A stretch of DNA of 64,000 bases from an uncultured Candidatus Peribacteria bacterium. Lineage in GTDB: Bacteria; Patescibacteriota; Gracilibacteria; Peribacterales; Peribacteraceae. Position numbers and translations under genes: made by a program. Shown here piece by piece: positions 8,328 through 51,602 of this stretch (the stretch's first letter is position 1; each line of letters starts with the position of its first letter). The stretch spans positions 16,820 through 80,819 of the forward strand of contig CAZWIA010000001.1 of the NCBI GenBank assembly GCA_964633955.1, written 5' to 3'. Under the pieces are notes generated by a model. That model did no database searches. It was not told the origin of the DNA and saw only the letters and a list, made by a program, of their open reading frames with translations.

Positions 8328-9974
8328 ATGTCCGCCGCCATCCGTCCATTCCCTGCGCCGCTTTCCCGTGCCGCCTTGTTCCTGATTGGCTGCGCGATCG
8401 TCCTCACGCCCGCGGCGGCCGCGGCGGCAACTCCCCTGGCCGGCGCGCTCACGCGCGAGCGGGCGGTCCTGTCCATTGTCCAGGCACTGGGCATCCCGCC
8501 GTCCGCCAAGACGGACGCCAGCGTCCGGCATTTGCCGCAGGCGCTGCAGCCGTTCTTCACGTCCGCGCTCAACCGCAGCGCGCTGGAAGTCTTTGGGGAG
8601 AAGCTGGAGCCGCAGGCGCCCATCACGCGCGGCCAGGCCGTGCACTTCCTGACGGTACTAGGCAATTACCACCAGAAGGACGCCGCCCTGCCGCCCTACG
8701 CGGACGTGCGCCGCGCGGAGCCCGGCGTGCGGAAGGCTGTAGACATCGCGCTGGAATACGGCTGGCTCCCGGCGCTGCGGAAAGACCGCTTTGGCGTGGA
8801 GGCACCCTTCACGGCCCGGGACCTGCGTACGCTCCTCACGGTCCTGCGCGGGGAGGAGGTGCGGAAGAACGGCAAGACCATTGTGGTGCCGGTGGTGCGC
8901 GTGCGCATCCCGTCCGCATCGGACGCGCCGGAGGCAGAGAAGCTCCTCAAGAACGTCCTGGAGCTGCTAGACAGCCGCTACTACTACGCGGAGAAGTTCG
9001 ACCGGACCGAAGCCCTCTACCGCGCGGCGGAGGCGATCGCGGAGAGCGCGCATGATCCGTACACCGTCTTCTCCAAGCCCAGCCGGGCGGACGTGAACCG
9101 CACCCAACTGGAGGGCACGTTGGAGGGAATTGGCGCGTCCGTGGAGATCAAGAAGGATACCACCGGGGAGGAGGTCCTGACTGTTGTGGCGCCGCTCCCG
9201 GGTTCTCCGGCGCTGGCCGCCGGCCTCCAGCCGGGAGACGAGATCGTGGCCGTGGACGGCGTCTCCGTCCTGGGCATGGCGCTTGAGGACGCGGTGGGGA
9301 AGATCCGCGGCAAGAGCGGCACGCAGGTGACTCTCACGCTCCGCCGCAACGGCGTGGAGTTCCAGAAGACGCTCCAGCGGGCCCGGATCAACCTGCCGGA
9401 GATCGAACGGAAGACGGTTGGCACCGCGCGGGTGGTCCGCCTCATCCAGTTCGGCAAGATCACGCACGAGCAGTTCCGGCAGCAGATGGCGGAAGTGGCC
9501 GCGGAGCAGCCCACCGGCATCGTCTTAGACCTGCGCAACAACCCCGGGGGGTTTTTAGACAGCGCCGAGCGGGTGGTGAGCGCGTTCCTTCCCAAAAACA
9601 GCGTCTTTGCCACCGTGAAGCTGGCGGACGGATCCGGGGAGGCGCAGCGGACGCTCTTGGATCCCGTGGTGCCGGAGTCCATCCCGCTCGTGGTCCTCAT
9701 CAACAATGGCTCGGCGTCGGCGTCGGAGATCGTGGCCGGCGCGCTCCAGGATGCCGGCCGTGCCAGGTTGGTTGGGGAGAAGACCTTTGGCAAGGGTTCC
9801 GTGCAGCAGGTGTATGACGTGGGCGGCGGCGCTACCCTCAAGGTGACGGTGGCCAAGTGGTTCACGCCCAAGGACCGGGCCATTGACGGCCAGGGGATTG
9901 AGCCGGACGTGCGCGTTCCCGGCTCCGCCGACCGGGACGACCAGCTGCTTAGGGCGCTGGATTTGCTGCGTTAA
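8328..9974 (+). CDS. S41 carboxy-terminal processing peptidase with PDZ domain
   Basis: Signal-like N-terminus; PDZ LPGSPALAAGLQPGDEIVAVDG; DLRNNPGGFLDSA; LINNGSASASEIVAGALQD; GEKTFGKGSVQ. Confidence 0.9.
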   Translation: MSAAIRPFPAPLSRAALFLIGCAIVLTPAAAAAATPLAGALTRERAVLSIVQALGIPPSAKTDASVRHLPQALQPFFTSALNRSALEVFGEKLEPQAPITRGQAVHFLTVLGNYHQKDAALPPYADVRRAEPGVRKAVDIALEYGWLPALRKDRFGVEAPFTARDLRTLLTVLRGEEVRKNGKTIVVPVVRVRIPSASDAPEAEKLLKNVLELLDSRYYYAEKFDRTEALYRAAEAIAESAHDPYTVFSKPSRADVNRTQLEGTLEGIGASVEIKKDTTGEEVLTVVAPLPGSPALAAGLQPGDEIVAVDGVSVLGMALEDAVGKIRGKSGTQVTLTLRRNGVEFQKTLQRARINLPEIERKTVGTARVVRLIQFGKITHEQFRQQMAEVAAEQPTGIVLDLRNNPGGFLDSAERVVSAFLPKNSVFATVKLADGSGEAQRTLLDPVVPESIPLVVLINNGSASASEIVAGALQDAGRARLVGEKTFGKGSVQQVYDVGGGATLKVTVAKWFTPKDRAIDGQGIEPDVRVPGSADRDDQLLRALDLLR

Positions 9975-17990: not shown

Positions 17991-18115
17991 TGGGGCGAGC
18001 GACGGGAGTCGAACCCGCGACCCTCTGGACCACAACCAGATGCGGCTGCGCCGCAGAGAGTCTTTCTTCTTGCACCTCGCGTCAACGCTCGGTGGCCCAC
18101 TGAGCTCCGCTCGCC
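17991..18115 (-). tRNA. tRNA-His-like gene with a 48-nt insertion between D arm and anticodon arm (pseudogene or regulatory mimic?)
   Basis: The 3' 53 nt are identical to tRNA-His (anticodon arm, T arm, acceptor, CCA). The 5' end GGCGAGCGgAGCUCAGUGG matches except for U8G. Confidence 0.45.
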
Positions 18116-18154: not shown

Positions 18155-18231
18155 TGGGGCGAGCGACGGGAGTCGAACCCGCGACCCTCTGGACCACAAC
18201 CAGATGCTCTAACCACTGAGCTACGCTCGCC
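18155..18231 (-). tRNA. tRNA-His (GUG), with encoded G-1 and CCA
   Basis: Manual cloverleaf: GGCGAGCG UA GCUC AGUGGUUA GAGC A UCUGG UUGUGGU CCAGA GGGUC GCGGG UUCGACU CCCGU CGCUCGC C CCA. Confidence 0.92.
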
Positions 18232-46256: not shown

Positions 46257-47768
<1,512 letters not shown>

Positions 47769-48002
47769 GCAGCCGCACAGTTTGTCACCCTGAGGTGGCC
47801 TGCACTGGCTCGCAGCTCAGCGAATGATGAGAGGATTCCCTCTGTCATGATGCGGGCCCTCGAAGGGTGATCTGAGGGGGAACGACCAAACTCGTTTTCC
47901 AACAACGCCGCACCCATGAAAGGGCGCTGCTGCGGGCAATCGTTATTCCCACTACCAGTAGCGGCATGGTGAGCCAGGTCGAACCACGTGGCCGCGGGTG
48001 TG

Positions 48003-48036
48003 AAACGAAAAACCACCCCGGCCCAGGCCGGGGTGG
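48003..48036 (-). terminator. Rho-independent terminator (minus strand)
   Basis: ccaccccggcc / ggccggggtgg stem, followed on the minus strand by tttttcgttt. Confidence 0.6.
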
Positions 48037-48398
48037 GGTGCGGAGGCCGTCAGGCCTTCATGTCGATGCATGTTATCGGAGCAATGTGGATGGCCGTTCC
48101 CAGAACGAGATGGTCAGGTAACTCCTTCTCCACGACGTGCGGCTGGCTTTTGTAACTGAACGAAGGGGCGGGGATGGACATCCGCCGTCTCGCATGCCTG
48201 GTGCCCCCAGAGCTTGGTGGTTGGAAGCCTGAAATGGCCCGAAGCACCGCATGTGACGAGGTGGTTTCTATTCCAGAGCCAATGCTCCCGCTTAAACCGC
48301 GCATGCGCCTCCACGAATGCGATGAGTACGCCGATCACGACCAATAAAGAACACAAAAAGTGTTCAATTTATACCTCTTCATGATGCTGTGTAATGTT

Positions 48399-48467
48399 TG
48401 GAGGGAGGAGGAATCGAACCTCCGCGGTCGGCCTAAGGCCGATGCTCTACCACTGAGCTACCCCTCC
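48399..48467 (-). tRNA. Atypical 69-nt tRNA-like gene; anticodon arm 2 nt short and centred on UUA; no encoded CCA
   Basis: GGAGGGG UA GCUC AGUGGUA GAGC A UCGGCC-UUA-GGCCGA CCGC GGAGG UUCGAUU CCUCC UCCCUCC A. Confidence 0.5.
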
Positions 48468-48611
48468 GGTCTTTCCCCTTCACTCTCTGCCCAGAGAGGA
48501 AGGACTGCCAGCCTATTCCTCTGTCTGGGTGAGTCAAGTCCAATAGACTTCTTATGCAACAAAATCAACAACTAGCAATTCAAGCTCTTGAGCAGCGCCC
48601 GGGCATCGATC

Positions 48612-51602
48612 ATGAACGGCAAGCCCGCTACACTGCCGCACATGACGCAGTTCACGGAGGAATGCGATCGGCTGAACCCGGCGCAGCGTCTGGCCGTGGA
48701 AACGATTGAAGGCCCGGTGATGGTGGTGGCGGGACCGGGTACCGGCAAGACGCAGGTCTTGGGGATGAGGGTGGCCAACATCCTGCAAAAAACCCAGATG
48801 AGACCGGGGAATATCCTGTGTCTTACCTTCAGTACCAGCGGCGCCGCTGCCATGCGCGAGCGGCTCCGGCGGCTCATCGGGCCGGATGCGTACGGCGTGA
48901 AAGTCAGCACCATTCACGGATTCTGCAATGAGATCATCACCATGCACCCGCAGGTCTTTGAGGATTGGTCCGCCCGGCAGCAGATCACGGACCTGGACCG
49001 CTACCGTGAGTTGAATATGATCATTGATCATATGATGCCGCATCTGGAACTTGTGAATCGCAAACATCCGTATTCACGGACAAAGGATATCCTGTGGCGG
49101 ATCAGCCAGCTGAAGAAGGAGGGAAAAGATGACTTCCAGGAACTAAAGCACATTGCCGACCGGCACGCGGCGCTCATGGCGGAGAAGAGCAAGCCGGGAA
49201 CCAGACAGCATGAGCGCAATCTGCTGCAGGCAAAGAAGTTCCAGGAGCTCGTCACGCTCTACGAGCGCTACCAGGAGATGCTGCGGCGCACAGACCGCTA
49301 TGACTACGACGACATGATCCTGCATGTGCTCCGCGCGCTCCGTGAGGAGGAGTGGATGCTGCAGTCCCTGCAGGAGAAGTACCAGTACGTCTTAGTAGAT
49401 GAGTATCAGGATACCAACGGCGCGCAGGCGCAGTTCATTGAGCTGCTCACTACGTATCCCACGCCGGATGCGGCGCCAAACCTCTTTGCAGTGGGAGATG
49501 ACGATCAGGCCATCTACCGTTTCCAAGGAGCTAATCTCACCAACCTGCTGCAGTTCCATGCGCGGTTCCCGGGAGCGCCGGTGATCGCGCTGACCGTGAA
49601 CTACCGTTCCACGCAGGCCATCCTGGATGCCGCAGGCAGTCTCATCGGCCACAATACTGAGCGGCTCGTCGGTCGGATTCCGGGGCTACAGAAGCAGCTT
49701 CTTGCCGGCGCTGATCCGGGCGGTCAGCCTGAGCCAAAGATGGTCTACGCGGCATCTGACACGGTGGAGCCGTGGCTGGTGGCGGACCTGGTCGCAGAAC
49801 GGCTAGAGCGGGGAGTGGATCCCCAGGAGATTGCCGTCCTCACTTGGACCAACGGCGAGGTTCTTTTGCTGTACGAGGTGCTGCGGGCCAGGAACATCCC
49901 CGTGCAGGTGCAGGGCAAAGTGGATCTCTTGAACCACCCGCTCATCAAGCAGGTCCTGTGCGTCCTGAAGGGGGTGGAGTACCCGCAGGATGACAGCCTG
50001 CTGCGCGATGCGATCGCGTGCGAGCGGCTGGGCTGCCATCCGGCCGATTTGGGGAGACTGTATGTCCTGCGGCGGGAGAGCGGCGGATCGCTGATGGATC
50101 TTCTGCTGAAGATTGAGGTGATCGCCCATGCCGGATCTGTGGCCTTCACGGACTTGGCGTCACTCGTCAAGGCCCGCGATTGCATTCTCAACCTGCATCA
50201 CAGGCGAAGGTCCAGGACGGTCGTGAACACCGTGGAGGCGCTCCTGAGAGACTGCGCTTTTCTGGAAGAGGAGAGGGAGGGAATGATAGATCCGCTAGAG
50301 TTCTCCGCCATCCAAGCCTTCTTCAACCATGTGTGCAGCCGGGCGAACGGCAATCCCGTCTACCAGTTTGGGGACCTGGTGAACGAGCTGGCGCTCTATG
50401 AGAGCCCGGAGTACGGGGACCTGCGCCTGCAGTACGCGGTACCGCGGTTGCATGAGAGCGGCGTGCAACTCATGACCGCCCACCAGAGCAAGGGGCGGGA
50501 ATTTCACACGGTGATCATCACGGATTTCCGCGAGGGGCAGTGGGACGGCCGGCGGACGCCGGCGGCGCTGGCGGTGCCGGAAGATCTCCTCTTTGGCTGG
50601 ACCCGCGACCAGAAAGCCTTTGAGCAGGACCAGGACGAGCGGCGGGTGGCCTTTGTGGCCATGACAAGGGCAAAACGGGAACTGCTCTTCACTTGCCCGC
50701 GCCAAACGGTGAGCGGGGACCGTGCCAGGCCCGTATCTCCCAGTGGCTTCTTTGCCCAGGCGGGCACGCTGCCGGAGGAGGAGCGGGAAGTGCGGGATGG
50801 CGATCTTGCCTCGCTCCTGATCGTGCGGCCCGTGCGGGACCTCTCCGCCGAGGAACGCGCGTTCCTCCGTGAGCAGCTGGAGCACTTCAGCCTGTCTCCC
50901 ACGGCGCTCAATCACTTCCTGGAGGATCCGCGGCTCTTCCTGGAGCGTGATCTGCTGCGCGCTCCGCAGCCGCTGCAGCCGGAGTTCCTGTTTGGCTCCG
51001 CCATGCACCGGGCGCTGCAGGCGTGGGGCATGTCCGTCCAGCAGGGGCAGCCCCTGGGGCGGGAGGAGGTGTTCTCCGTCTTTGAGCGGACGGTGATGGA
51101 GACCGGGGTGGCCACCGAGCAGCTCCGGCGGGCGCTGGTGGAGGACGGCCGGGACGTGCTCCCACGCTACTACGATGCATGCTTGGCGGTGTCCCGTCCG
51201 TTCATCGACCGGTTGGAATCCACGCTCACGGCGCAGCTCACGGATCCTGAGCGCCCGGATCTGCCCGGCATCCCGCTCAAGGGCAAAGTGGACCGCGTGG
51301 ACCGGTTGGATGCGGATTCCTCCTTGGCCACCGTGTGGGACTACAAGACCGGCGCCTCCAAGACGGAGAAGGAGATCCGGGAAGGAGACCTCTACCGCCA
51401 GATCACGTTCTACTCCCTGCTGTTTGACGCCGGCAACATGCTGCTCACGCCGCAGTCCTTCATCCTGGAGTTCCTGGGAGGCAAGGCGGAGTCTCCCGTC
51501 TCCCGCGTGTTCCAGATTCCGGAAACCGATCGCCAGGATCTCACCCGGGTGATCCGCGCCGTCTGGACCAAGATCCAAGCGCTGGATTTCACGCCGCTGT
51601 GA
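48612..51602 (+). CDS. UvrD/PcrA-family helicase fused to a C-terminal PD-(D/E)xK (RecB-like) nuclease
   Basis: LNPAQRLAVETIEGPVMVVAGPGTGKT; VLVDEYQDTNGAQ; MTAHQSKGREF; C-terminal GKVDRVDRL...VWDYKTG...LYRQITFYSLL. Confidence 0.85.
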   Translation: MNGKPATLPHMTQFTEECDRLNPAQRLAVETIEGPVMVVAGPGTGKTQVLGMRVANILQKTQMRPGNILCLTFSTSGAAAMRERLRRLIGPDAYGVKVSTIHGFCNEIITMHPQVFEDWSARQQITDLDRYRELNMIIDHMMPHLELVNRKHPYSRTKDILWRISQLKKEGKDDFQELKHIADRHAALMAEKSKPGTRQHERNLLQAKKFQELVTLYERYQEMLRRTDRYDYDDMILHVLRALREEEWMLQSLQEKYQYVLVDEYQDTNGAQAQFIELLTTYPTPDAAPNLFAVGDDDQAIYRFQGANLTNLLQFHARFPGAPVIALTVNYRSTQAILDAAGSLIGHNTERLVGRIPGLQKQLLAGADPGGQPEPKMVYAASDTVEPWLVADLVAERLERGVDPQEIAVLTWTNGEVLLLYEVLRARNIPVQVQGKVDLLNHPLIKQVLCVLKGVEYPQDDSLLRDAIACERLGCHPADLGRLYVLRRESGGSLMDLLLKIEVIAHAGSVAFTDLASLVKARDCILNLHHRRRSRTVVNTVEALLRDCAFLEEEREGMIDPLEFSAIQAFFNHVCSRANGNPVYQFGDLVNELALYESPEYGDLRLQYAVPRLHESGVQLMTAHQSKGREFHTVIITDFREGQWDGRRTPAALAVPEDLLFGWTRDQKAFEQDQDERRVAFVAMTRAKRELLFTCPRQTVSGDRARPVSPSGFFAQAGTLPEEEREVRDGDLASLLIVRPVRDLSAEERAFLREQLEHFSLSPTALNHFLEDPRLFLERDLLRAPQPLQPEFLFGSAMHRALQAWGMSVQQGQPLGREEVFSVFERTVMETGVATEQLRRALVEDGRDVLPRYYDACLAVSRPFIDRLESTLTAQLTDPERPDLPGIPLKGKVDRVDRLDADSSLATVWDYKTGASKTEKEIREGDLYRQITFYSLLFDAGNMLLTPQSFILEFLGGKAESPVSRVFQIPETDRQDLTRVIRAVWTKIQALDFTPL

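What the first reader, a model, noticed from the sequence alone, without database searches (positions are those of the whole stretch)
48399..48467. Non-canonical tRNA-like gene whose shortened anticodon arm is centred on UUA (would pair with the UAA stop codon)
The minus-strand sequence folds as a tRNA. It has a 7-bp acceptor stem (one G:U), a D arm GCUC/GAGC, a T arm GGAGG-UUCGAUU-CCUCC, a 4-nt variable loop and discriminator A. It is only 69 nt long because the anticodon arm is 15 nt instead of 17: UCGGCC-UUA-GGCCGA.

Drawn either as a 6-bp stem with a 3-nt loop or as a 4-bp stem with a 7-nt loop (CCUUAGG, with C at position 33), the central triplet is UUA. No standard tRNA has this anticodon. 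CCA is not encoded, unlike tRNA-His in this window.

It sits in an AT-richer patch (48050-48590) with only doubtful small ORFs and its own minus-strand terminator at 48003-48036. UAA is used as a stop here (the S41 peptidase gene ends in TAA at 9972-9974), so an ochre suppressor would be unexpected. The alternatives are a tRNA pseudogene, a phage or mobile-element-derived suppressor, or a tRNA-like regulatory RNA.
Basis: partly seen in the sequence, partly recalled or inferred. Interest (0 to 1): 0.6.

Follow-up and report, generated by a model that had tools for sequence, protein, structure and literature searches.

The report
Non-decoding tRNA look-alike, not a suppressor
This is a real, perfectly tRNA-shaped small gene in an uncultured Peribacteria (CPR) bacterium, but its "anticodon" is only the tip of a closed hairpin; related genomes carry equally tRNA-shaped genes with other unusable tips at the same spot, so it is probably a tRNA mimic and not a tRNA that reads the UAA stop codon.

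Summary
Window 48399-48467 (-) is a 69-nt cloverleaf (ARAGORN "tRNA-Stop tta"; Rfam tRNA 62.8 bits). Its anticodon arm is 15 nt and folds as a 6-bp stem with a UUA triloop. No CCA is encoded, although all 44 genuine tRNAs of this genome encode it. Assemblies from four independent studies reproduce the sequence without an indel.

The ochre-suppressor reading is not supported:
- TAA ends 19% of long ORFs.
- Read-through lengths after TAA match those after TAG and TGA.
- Two class-I release factors are present.
- The UUA is not conserved in relatives.

I scanned the same spacer (rpoD, then the RNA gene, then a UvrD-type helicase-nuclease transcribed the other way) in about 116 other Peribacteraceae genomes. 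Six carry a CCA-less tRNA-shaped gene there on the same strand, and a seventh has a weak candidate. Their stems are intact (98.7% of pair cells). Their anticodon arms differ freely: UUCG, GAAA and UUGC tetraloop caps, a 6-nt loop, a 24-nt insert and one 7-nt loop. No ordinary tRNA sits at this locus in any genome.

Best reading (0.6): a stand-alone tRNA-derived RNA that does not decode, kept for its tRNA body. Its function is unknown. The main rival (0.25) is a neutral tRNA relic.

The parts
48399..48467 (-). 69-nt tRNA-shaped RNA gene: 7-bp acceptor stem, D arm, closed anticodon arm, 4-nt variable loop, T arm, discriminator A, no encoded CCA
   Evidence: ARAGORN. Rfam RF00005 at 62.8 bits. 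Cloverleaf minimum-free-energy fold, z = -3.6. Identical in assemblies from four independent studies.
48428..48442 (-). Anticodon arm UCGGCC-UUA-GGCCGA, 15 nt instead of 17. The UUA (48434-48436) is the triloop of a 6-bp stem. In the canonical frame this is a 5-bp stem with the 5-nt loop CUUAG.
   Evidence: Sequence, fold, Rfam alignment.
48349..48365 (-). Weak terminator-like hairpin GAACAC-UUUUU-GUGUUC followed by a U-rich run, 34 nt after the 3' end of the RNA
   Evidence: Consensus scan. Every counterpart in relatives also has a hairpin within 3-35 nt, followed by a U run in most.
48013..48036 (-). Strong minus-strand intrinsic terminator (10 bp, 9 of them G:C, then a T run). It would end any longer transcript that reads through the weak hairpin.
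48468..48587 (.). 120-nt spacer between the 5' end of the RNA gene and the start of the helicase ORF. It holds the leader, and presumably the promoters, of both units, which are transcribed in opposite directions. The consensus scan found no sigma-70-like match.
47769..48398 (.). 630-nt stretch, lower in G+C, between the RNA gene and the rpoD stop codon. It holds only short ORFs with no Pfam match and is not alignable with the equivalent stretch of congeneric genome G003.
46257..47768 (+). rpoD (503 aa, with a C-terminal Cys4 tail), convergent with the RNA gene; synteny anchor
   Evidence: ORF and translation. rpoD-like ORFs or sequence flank the counterparts in G003, G049 and G060.
48588..51602 (+). 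UvrD-type helicase fused to a PD-(D/E)XK nuclease (1004 aa), transcribed away from the RNA gene; synteny anchor used for all comparisons
   Evidence: Pfam PF00580, PF13361 and PF12705. Found in nearly every family genome searched.

Best explanation
The element is a stand-alone gene for a tRNA-derived, tRNA-shaped small RNA that does not decode. It belongs to a patchily distributed set of such genes that occupy one fixed place in Peribacteraceae genomes: between rpoD and a UvrD-type helicase-nuclease, transcribed away from the helicase.

**Shown**
- The acceptor, D and T arms and the D-loop and T-loop nucleotides that build the tRNA elbow are kept intact.
- The anticodon arm is unconstrained in sequence and length. 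It is usually closed by a 3- or 4-nt cap.
- CCA is never encoded, although the genuine tRNAs of these genomes that I examined all encode it.

**Inferred**
- The RNA is transcribed from its own promoter and ends at the hairpin that follows it.
- RNase P cuts its 5' end, as for a tRNA, and its 3' end is trimmed. The genome's CCA-adding-type enzyme might extend it.
- It then acts through its tRNA body (acceptor helix, T arm and elbow) as a mimic, substrate or competitor for tRNA-binding proteins, possibly as part of a longer transcript.
- It cannot present an anticodon, so the UUA is an accident of the hairpin tip.

The partner and the cellular role are unknown.
For: **Real tRNA shape.** Rfam 62.8 bits and a cloverleaf fold.

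**Real sequence.** Four independent assemblies agree.

**Same-locus, same-strand counterparts**

| Genome | Relation | Locus | Rfam bits | Anticodon arm |
|---|---|---|---|---|
| G003 | same genus | L053:2764-2836 | 59.9 | 7-bp stem + UUCG |
| G049 | other genus | L037:1311-1381 | 57.2 | 6-bp stem + UUGC; body like tRNA-Gly(GCC) |
| G132 | other genus | L229:542-609 | 52.9 | 4-bp stem + GAAA |
| G089 | same genus as G132 | L233:679-767 | 53.4 | 24-nt insert |
| G080 | other genus | L231:213-284 | 51.5 | 6-nt loop |
| G060 | other genus | L242:1291-1363 | not scanned with Rfam; 60.5 bits with model R1 | 7-nt loop GUCAAAA on a short-variable-arm body |
| G101 | other genus | L234:253-328 | not detected | weak candidate only |

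- None encodes CCA.
- All are followed by a hairpin, with a U run in most.
- No ordinary tRNA lies at this locus in about 116 family genomes.

**Stems are as good as in working tRNAs.** Across the 7 strong members, 98.7% of pair cells form standard pairs, and 18 of 22 pairs change on both sides.

**Compensatory change after duplication.** G049's copy matches the acceptor stem, D stem and variable loop of tRNA-Gly(GCC). It has compensated changes in the anticodon and T stems.

**Shared ancestry in one genus.** G132 and G089 share their leader, the G3:U70 pair, A73 and a CUC trailer, yet have completely different anticodon arms.

**Not a chance co-location.** Aberrant full-length tRNA look-alikes are rare: this is the only one with all four stems intact in the whole G000 genome (a degraded tRNA-Ile(UAU) copy on contig C14 is listed under things noticed in passing).
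Against: - There is no expression evidence. No RNA run holding any of these loci could be found.
- Only 7-8 of about 117 family genomes have the element. Two of four congeners (G002, G004) lack it. It is therefore dispensable.
- The members do not resemble one another more than they resemble ordinary tRNAs. They look like derivatives of different isoacceptors, so common descent is unproven. The covariation count would look the same for any set of unrelated tRNAs.
- The scan can only see copies that still look like tRNAs. Decayed copies in other genomes would be missed.
- No conserved acceptor identity or discriminator exists (A, C, U, A, A, C, U), which argues against one shared partner that reads the acceptor end.
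- No sigma-70-like promoter was called in G000.
Confidence: 0.6

Rival explanations
1. Neutral relic. A tRNA gene or tRNA duplicate at this spot was inactivated by a 2-nt deletion in the anticodon loop, for example slippage in a run such as CUUUUAG giving CUUAG. It simply has not decayed further. It has no function and will be lost, as it has been in most relatives.
For: - Distribution is patchy, and the element is absent from congeners G002 and G004.
- The best local match of the 5' half is tRNA-Lys(UUU), whose loop is CUUUUAA.
- This genome holds other tRNA debris: a partial tRNA-His duplicate at 17991-18092 and a degraded tRNA-Ile(UAU) copy on contig C14.
- No expression data exist.
- Detection is biased towards intact-looking copies.
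Against: - In 7 strong members the lesion is almost always a change in the length or shape of the anticodon arm, while 149 of 151 stem pair cells stay paired. Under neutral decay, substitutions that break stems should come first and be far more common than loop indels (inference).
- Three caps (UUCG, GAAA, UUGC) sit on lengthened or re-cut stems. This looks like selection for a closed helix.
- No close parent tRNA exists in G000: the best is 55 of 69 matches, with all stems different. The copy is therefore not recent, yet it is undamaged.
- Independent relics would not be expected to sit at the same spacer and strand in at least 5 genera.
Confidence: 0.25
2. DNA-level element. The tRNA-like sequence matters as DNA and not as RNA. 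It might be an attachment site for integrative elements, which would explain the variable DNA between it and rpoD. It might instead be part of the control region shared with the oppositely transcribed helicase gene.
For: - The stretch on the 3' side of the element is variable and unrelated between G000 (630 nt), G003 (about 730 nt) and G049 (about 115 nt). G002 has a 175-aa orphan ORF there instead.
- The patch is lower in G+C.
- tRNA genes are classic integration targets (established knowledge; PMC9897764, PMC3399842).
Against: - The 3' half of the RNA has no direct repeat anywhere in the window.
- No integrase or other mobile-element gene lies nearby.
- Compensatory maintenance of RNA stems is not needed for a DNA site.
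- A host would have no reason to maintain an attachment site.
Confidence: 0.08
3. Working decoder. The arm opens to a 4-bp stem with the 7-nt loop CCUUAGG and reads UAA as an ochre suppressor, or the short loop causes some other recoding event.
For: - ARAGORN can draw this fold and labels it tRNA-Stop(tta).
- A CCA-adding-type enzyme is encoded, so a CCA end could be made.
- One counterpart (G060) has a 7-nt loop.
Against: - The loop would have C33 instead of U33. C32:G38 and C33:G37 would pair and close it, and the 6-bp form is both the minimum-free-energy and the centroid fold.
- TAA ends 162 of 855 long ORFs. The open stretch after TAA (at least 100 codons in 19%) is like that after TGA (17%) and TAG (15%).
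- Two PCRF release factors are present.
- UUA is not conserved in any counterpart.
- No acceptor identity is recognisable.
- CCA is lacking, unlike in all real tRNAs here.
Confidence: 0.03
4. Consensus error. The true sequence has a normal 7-nt loop, and 2 nt were lost during assembly.
For: None beyond prior plausibility for metagenome-assembled genomes.
Against: Contigs from four separate studies, two of them at about 20x depth, match the stretch exactly with no inserted or deleted letters. Relatives show other non-canonical arms at the same locus.
Confidence: 0.02

Closest known systems
tRNAOther of Bacillus cereus (pseudo-tRNA; Rogers et al. 2012, PMC3399842)
   Same: A chromosomal, tRNA-derived gene that does not function in translation. 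[quoted passage not shown] The paper states that inactivated tRNA genes can be recruited to other functions.
   Different: tRNAOther keeps a Trp (CCA) anticodon that it uses on a T-box, and it flanks a genomic island. The Peribacteraceae elements have closed, variable anticodon arms, lie at a core-gene locus with no island signature, and have no experimental data.
mascRNA and related tRNA-like small RNAs cut from long transcripts (own knowledge; Arabidopsis GUT15 tRNA-like, PMC6152437)
   Same: A cloverleaf-like RNA with tRNA-type acceptor and T arms but a defective, shortened anticodon arm and no encoded CCA. It is recognised by tRNA-processing enzymes and does not decode.
   Different: These are eukaryotic and are excised from the end or an intron of a long non-coding RNA. 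The element here is a bacterial unit with its own terminator.
Small stable tRNA-like RNAs in phage tRNA clusters
   Same: tRNA-shaped RNAs whose body is conserved while the anticodon arm is short or missing. Their function is unknown.
   Different: Those lie in phage or prophage tRNA arrays and often encode CCA. This one is a single chromosomal gene between housekeeping genes, never with CCA.
tmRNA tRNA-like domain and synthetic minihelix-Ala (tmRNA: PMC3985003; minihelix-Ala and G3:U70: PMC9976931)
   Same: An acceptor helix, T arm and elbow without a decoding anticodon. The counterparts in G132 and G089 carry G3:U70 and A73, the acceptor-stem mark read by AlaRS.
   Different: The G000 element has A3:U70, which is not the alanine mark. 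There is no mRNA-like part, no CCA and no SmpB-type context. A separate normal tmRNA gene exists in this genome.
Non-proteinogenic tRNA-Gly of Staphylococcus, used by FemXAB (own knowledge; PMC4052509 reviews tRNA use by Fem enzymes)
   Same: Extra tRNA species kept out of ribosomal translation and used for another task. FemAB-family genes are present in G000 and in all 20 family genomes tested.
   Different: The staphylococcal tRNAs keep a normal anticodon loop and CCA and are charged by GlyRS. Here no charging is shown, the identities differ between members, and FemAB presence does not track presence of the element.

Membership tests
Canonical tRNA (Rfam RF00005) | Cloverleaf with 7-bp acceptor, D, anticodon and T stems, scoring above the family threshold | tested here: met
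   62.8 bits against a gathering score of 29. Cloverleaf minimum-free-energy fold.
Canonical tRNA (Rfam RF00005) | Conserved elbow nucleotides (U8, A14, G18-G19, T loop UUCGA with A58) | tested here: met
   UA at positions 8-9, D loop AGUGGUA and T loop UUCGAUU, read. The same holds in the six strong counterparts.
Canonical tRNA (Rfam RF00005) | 5-bp anticodon stem with a 7-nt loop, U33 and a 3-nt anticodon | tested here: not met
   The arm is 15 nt. It is either a 5-bp stem with the 5-nt loop CUUAG or a 6-bp stem with the 3-nt loop UUA. A 7-nt loop would need a 4-bp stem and C33.
Canonical tRNA (Rfam RF00005) | 3' CCA, which is genomically encoded in every working tRNA of this genome | tested here: not met
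   The discriminator A is followed by AAC. All other intact tRNAs end in CCA.
Ochre (UAA) suppressor tRNA | UUA displayed as an anticodon in an open 7-nt loop | tested here: not met
   The minimum-free-energy and centroid folds close the arm to a triloop.
Ochre (UAA) suppressor tRNA | The genome tolerates or uses UAA read-through (few TAA stops, in-frame TAA, or loss of a release factor) | tested here: not met
   TAA ends 162 of 855 long ORFs. Continuation after TAA is like that after TAG and TGA. Two PCRF-domain release factors are present.
Ochre (UAA) suppressor tRNA | The anticodon is conserved in orthologues | tested here: not met
   Same-locus counterparts show UUCG, UUGC, GAAA, CUCCAA, GUCAAAA or a 24-nt insert.
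Ochre (UAA) suppressor tRNA | Aminoacylation by some synthetase | not testable with these tools
   No recognisable identity set: G1:C72, G2:C71, A3:U70, A73, no anticodon.
tRNA fragment at an integration site (attL/attR type pseudo-tRNA) | A partial tRNA (usually the 3' half) repeated at the far end of an inserted element, with an integrase nearby | tested here: not met
   The cloverleaf is full length. The 3' 22 nt has no second copy in the 64-kb window even with 3 mismatches. No matching direct repeats. The neighbours are dnaG, rpoD, the helicase and ftsK.
Decaying tRNA pseudogene | Mismatches accumulating in stems and loss of conserved loop nucleotides | tested here: not met
   All 21 canonical pairs are intact in G000. 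98.7% of pair cells are intact across 7 members. The test is biased towards intact copies.
Pseudo-tRNA or tRNA-like regulatory RNA (tRNAOther type) | Expressed, stable, and not engaged in translation | not testable with these tools
   No RNA runs were found for this or related loci. Non-decoding is inferred from the structure only.
YrlA (bacterial Y RNA-like, RF02553) | Match to the family model | tested here: not met
   No hit in the window. The only hit is a sub-threshold 24.9 bits (gathering score 69) across two adjacent elements in G080.
Alanine-accepting minihelix or tmRNA-like acceptor | G3:U70 wobble pair with A73 | tested here: not met
   G000 has A3:U70. The feature is present in the counterparts in G132 and G089.

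The most novel reading that the evidence does not exclude
Peribacteraceae keep a dedicated chromosomal slot, next to the rpoD operon and the helicase-nuclease gene, for an anticodon-free tRNA body. This body is repeatedly rebuilt from ordinary tRNAs and then capped with UUCG, GNRA or triloop tips so that the ribosome cannot use it. It would receive CCA after transcription. At least in the G3:U70 lineages it would be charged, and it would serve a job outside decoding. One candidate job is donating an amino acid to the FemAB-type peptidoglycan transferases that every genome of the family encodes. Another is acting as a tRNA-shaped decoy or regulator.
Probability: 0.12. Interest if true: 0.75.

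Novelty: new variant of a known kind. Interest (0 to 1): 0.5.

Why it matters
Annotation pipelines will label this gene "tRNA-Stop" or "suppressor", which would wrongly suggest stop-codon recoding in a CPR bacterium. The evidence shows that TAA is an ordinary stop here.

The more interesting point is comparative. A 1-Mb streamlined genome keeps a fully tRNA-shaped gene that cannot decode, and relatives keep differently capped versions at the same place. This adds a chromosomal, core-locus example to the still poorly understood class of tRNA mimics that do not decode (tRNAOther, phage tRNA-like RNAs, mascRNA).

If the RNA is expressed, the set forms a natural series: the tRNA body is under selection while the anticodon arm is free. 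That could help identify which tRNA-binding proteins read only the acceptor, T arm and elbow in ultra-small bacteria.

Tried and rejected
- **Sequence homologs in relatives.** BLAST of the 69 nt against 40 relatives gave only generic D-arm matches. A covariance model built from G000 and G003, run on 121 family genomes, found nothing closer than ordinary tRNA-Ala(UGC), tRNA-Glu and tRNA-Gly. The G000 version has no close homolog by sequence; only synteny finds the counterparts.
- **Derived from the missing tRNA-Ala(UGC)?** The family's tRNA-Ala(UGC) is highly conserved and unlike this element. Rejected.
- **Pattern scans for variants with other loop lengths.** The genome-contig scan returned 0 hits. 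The metagenome-contig scan returned two chance hits inside coding sequence.
- **Profile-guided locus search for the helicase in genome contigs.** The hits were swamped by generic UvrD motifs from other phyla. The search only served to name the organism group.
- **Integration-site repeats.** None found.
- **Small ORFs beside the element in G000, G002 and G003.** None has a Pfam match, and the G000 and G003 spacers do not align outside the RNA gene.
- **Correlation with FemAB-family genes.** They are present in 20 of 20 family genomes whether or not the element is there, so this is uninformative.
- **RNase Z.** No hit over the cut-off, only a 40-bit metallo-beta-lactamase-fold match. How the CCA-less 3' end would be matured is open.
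- **Expression.** No RNA run was found for G000, G003 or G060. Run X7 is of unknown type and gave only one 250-nt contig.
- **Literature.** I found nothing on such elements in Peribacteria or CPR bacteria.
- **YrlA.** Only a sub-threshold hit in G080.

Full report
**1. What is there**

On the minus strand of window 48399-48467 lies a 69-nt sequence that ARAGORN calls "tRNA-Stop (tta)". The Rfam tRNA model scores it at 62.8 bits against a threshold of 29.

- a 7-bp acceptor stem with one G:U
- normal D and T arms and loops
- a 4-nt variable loop
- discriminator A
- a 15-nt anticodon arm
- no encoded CCA (AAC follows)

The minimum-free-energy and centroid folds are a cloverleaf whose anticodon arm is a 6-bp stem closed by the triloop UUA: -34.7 kcal/mol, z = -3.6. 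Rfam aligns it as a 5-bp stem with a 5-nt loop.

**2. It is not a sequencing artefact**

Assembled contigs from four separate public studies cover the element with no difference and no indel. Two of them are at about 20x depth. Contigs can hide rare variants, so raw reads remain desirable.

**3. Organism and setting**

The window belongs to a 1.02-Mb, 63% G+C, 99.8%-complete genome. Related records are titled Candidatus Peribacteraceae or Peribacteria, a CPR/Patescibacteria lineage.

The neighbours are dnaG, rpoD (+), the RNA gene (-), a UvrD-type helicase fused to a PD-(D/E)XK nuclease (+), and ftsK. The RNA gene is convergent with rpoD and is transcribed away from the helicase, whose ORF starts 120 nt from its 5' end.

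A weak hairpin with a U run follows 34 nt after the 3' end. A strong terminator lies about 360 nt further on.

The whole-genome tRNA set has 44 ordinary tRNAs, all with encoded CCA. Published complete Peribacteria genomes have 46 (PMC4736985). This assembly lacks tRNA-Ala(UGC) and tRNA-Gln(UUG), probably because of gaps.

**4. The suppressor idea fails**

- TAA terminates 162 of 855 long non-overlapping ORFs (19%).
- The in-frame open stretch after a TAA is no longer than after TGA or TAG: it reaches at least 100 codons in 19%, 17% and 15% of cases.
- Two PCRF-domain class-I release factors are encoded. By established knowledge both RF1 and RF2 read UAA.
- To display UUA, the arm would have to open two G:C pairs and use C33.
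- The triplet is not conserved in any counterpart (section 5).

**5. The comparative result**

Sequence searches found no homolog, so I used synteny. I fetched the helicase start region from about 116 other genomes of the same family and 7 from other families of the class. I scanned these with ARAGORN, Rfam and a covariance model.

No ordinary tRNA lies there in any genome. Six genomes carry a tRNA-shaped gene at the same place and on the same relative strand, and a seventh has a weak candidate.

| Genome | Relation to G000 | Anticodon arm | Other features |
|---|---|---|---|
| G003 | same genus | 7-bp stem capped by UUCG | 59.9 bits |
| G049 | other genus | 6-bp stem capped by UUGC | acceptor, D stem and variable loop identical to tRNA-Gly(GCC); compensated changes in two other stems |
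| G132 | other genus | 4-bp stem capped by GAAA | G3:U70 and A73 |
| G089 | congener of G132 | 5-bp stem carrying a 24-nt insert | shares the leader, G3:U70, A73 and trailer with G132 |
| G080 | other genus | 6-nt loop CUCCAA | |
| G060 | other genus | 7-nt loop GUCAAAA | short-variable-arm body, so not a bacterial tRNA-Leu shape |
| G101 | other genus | 6-nt loop on a 6-bp stem | weak candidate, more degenerate |

- None encodes CCA. Four have CUC after the discriminator.
- Every ordinary tRNA I looked at in these genomes does encode CCA.
- Each is followed by a hairpin, with a U run in most.
- Across the seven strong members, 149 of 151 stem pair cells are standard pairs, and 18 of 22 pairs show changes on both sides.

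**6. Interpretation**

The pattern is an intact tRNA body and elbow, an anticodon arm free to vary in sequence and length and often closed by a very stable cap, no CCA, its own terminator, and a fixed genomic address. It fits a tRNA-derived RNA that does not decode and is kept for its shape.

*Why a string of accidental pseudogenes is less likely.* Under neutral decay, stem-breaking substitutions should far outnumber loop-length changes. Here the reverse is seen in every member. Aberrant full-length look-alikes are rare elsewhere: this is the only one with all four stems intact in G000.

*Caveats.*
- The covariation count would look the same for any collection of real tRNAs.
- The members do not resemble each other more than they resemble other tRNAs.
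- The scan only sees copies that still look like tRNAs.
- The element is absent from most of the family, including two congeners.
- There is no expression evidence.

I therefore put the selected-mimic reading at about 0.6 and a neutral relic at about 0.25.

**7. Mechanism: what is shown and what is inferred**

*Shown:* the structure, the absence of a usable anticodon and of CCA, the synteny and the terminator-like hairpins.

*Inferred:*
- transcription as a small unit
- 5' cleavage by RNase P
- 3' trimming
- possible CCA addition; a PF01743-family nucleotidyltransferase is encoded, but no RNase Z passes the cut-off
- action through the acceptor helix, T arm and elbow

A role as amino-acid donor for the FemAB-family enzymes is possible, above all for the G3:U70 versions. 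These enzymes are present in G000 and in all 20 relatives tested. The idea has no specific support: FemAB does not track the element, G000 has A3:U70, and acceptor identities differ between members.

A role as part of a longer regulatory RNA, as proposed for B. cereus tRNAOther (PMC3399842), is also open. In G000, 360 nt separate the element from the strong terminator.

**8. Novelty**

tRNA-derived RNAs that do not decode are a known kind: tRNAOther, the phage T4/T5 tRNA-like RNAs, mascRNA and the tmRNA tRNA-like domain. I found no description of this Peribacteraceae locus or of capped-arm tRNA look-alikes in CPR chromosomes.

Earlier unchecked notes of this scan report similar anticodon-less tRNA look-alikes in other Patescibacteria. 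I treat these only as leads.

I rate the finding as a new variant of a known kind. Its interest is moderate and would rise if expression and a partner were shown.

Noticed in passing
window 17991-18092 (-) and 18155-18230 (-): ARAGORN's 102-nt 'tRNA-Arg(gcg)' is not a tRNA. Its last 53 nt are an exact copy of the 3' part of the neighbouring tRNA-His (anticodon arm to CCA), 63 nt downstream of the real gene.
   Followed up: partly
genome contig C14:9266-9339 (-) and C16:21948-22024 (+): The genome has a tRNA-Ile with anticodon UAU next to tRNA-Ile(GAU). A second, degraded copy lacks CCA and has a damaged acceptor end. This suggests AUA is read by a UAU tRNA and not by a lysidine-modified CAU tRNA.
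   Followed up: no
whole genome G000: No tRNA-Ala(UGC) and no tRNA-Gln(UUG) gene was found in the 54-contig assembly, although relatives have a highly conserved tRNA-Ala(UGC). These are probably assembly gaps.
   Followed up: partly
L231:121-208 (+) (genome G080): Directly upstream of G080's tRNA look-alike lies a second, poorer tRNA-like stretch with a GGUUCGAAUCC T loop, ending in GCCA (model R1: 11 bits, E = 0.17). Together the two give a sub-threshold Rfam YrlA hit (24.9 bits, gathering score 69).
   Followed up: no
L037, L229, L233, L242 (just 3' of the tRNA look-alikes): Four of the eight look-alikes, from three genera, have the trinucleotide CUC immediately after the discriminator, where real tRNAs of these genomes have CCA.
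   Followed up: no
window 47670-47768 (+); also L053:3570-4157 (-): RpoD carries a C-terminal tail with two CxxC pairs (CPHC...CDHC), like a zinc ribbon. The tail is conserved in the congeneric genome G003.
   Followed up: no
G009:C131:1211-2356 (L022): The helicase orthologue of genome G009 shows one in-frame TAA inside the matched region. This may be a pseudogene, a sequencing error or read-through; I did not examine it.
   Followed up: no
G000 contigs C8:20046-21101 and C2:7562-8551: G000 has two FemAB-family genes (aminoacyl-tRNA-dependent peptidoglycan bridge transferases). The family is present in all 20 other Peribacteraceae genomes tested, but in only 2 of 14 control genomes.
   Followed up: partly
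L051:2691-3218 (+) (genome G002): In congener G002 the rpoD-helicase spacer has no RNA gene. It holds a 175-aa ORF without any Pfam match, in the same position and orientation as the tRNA look-alike of G000.
   Followed up: partly
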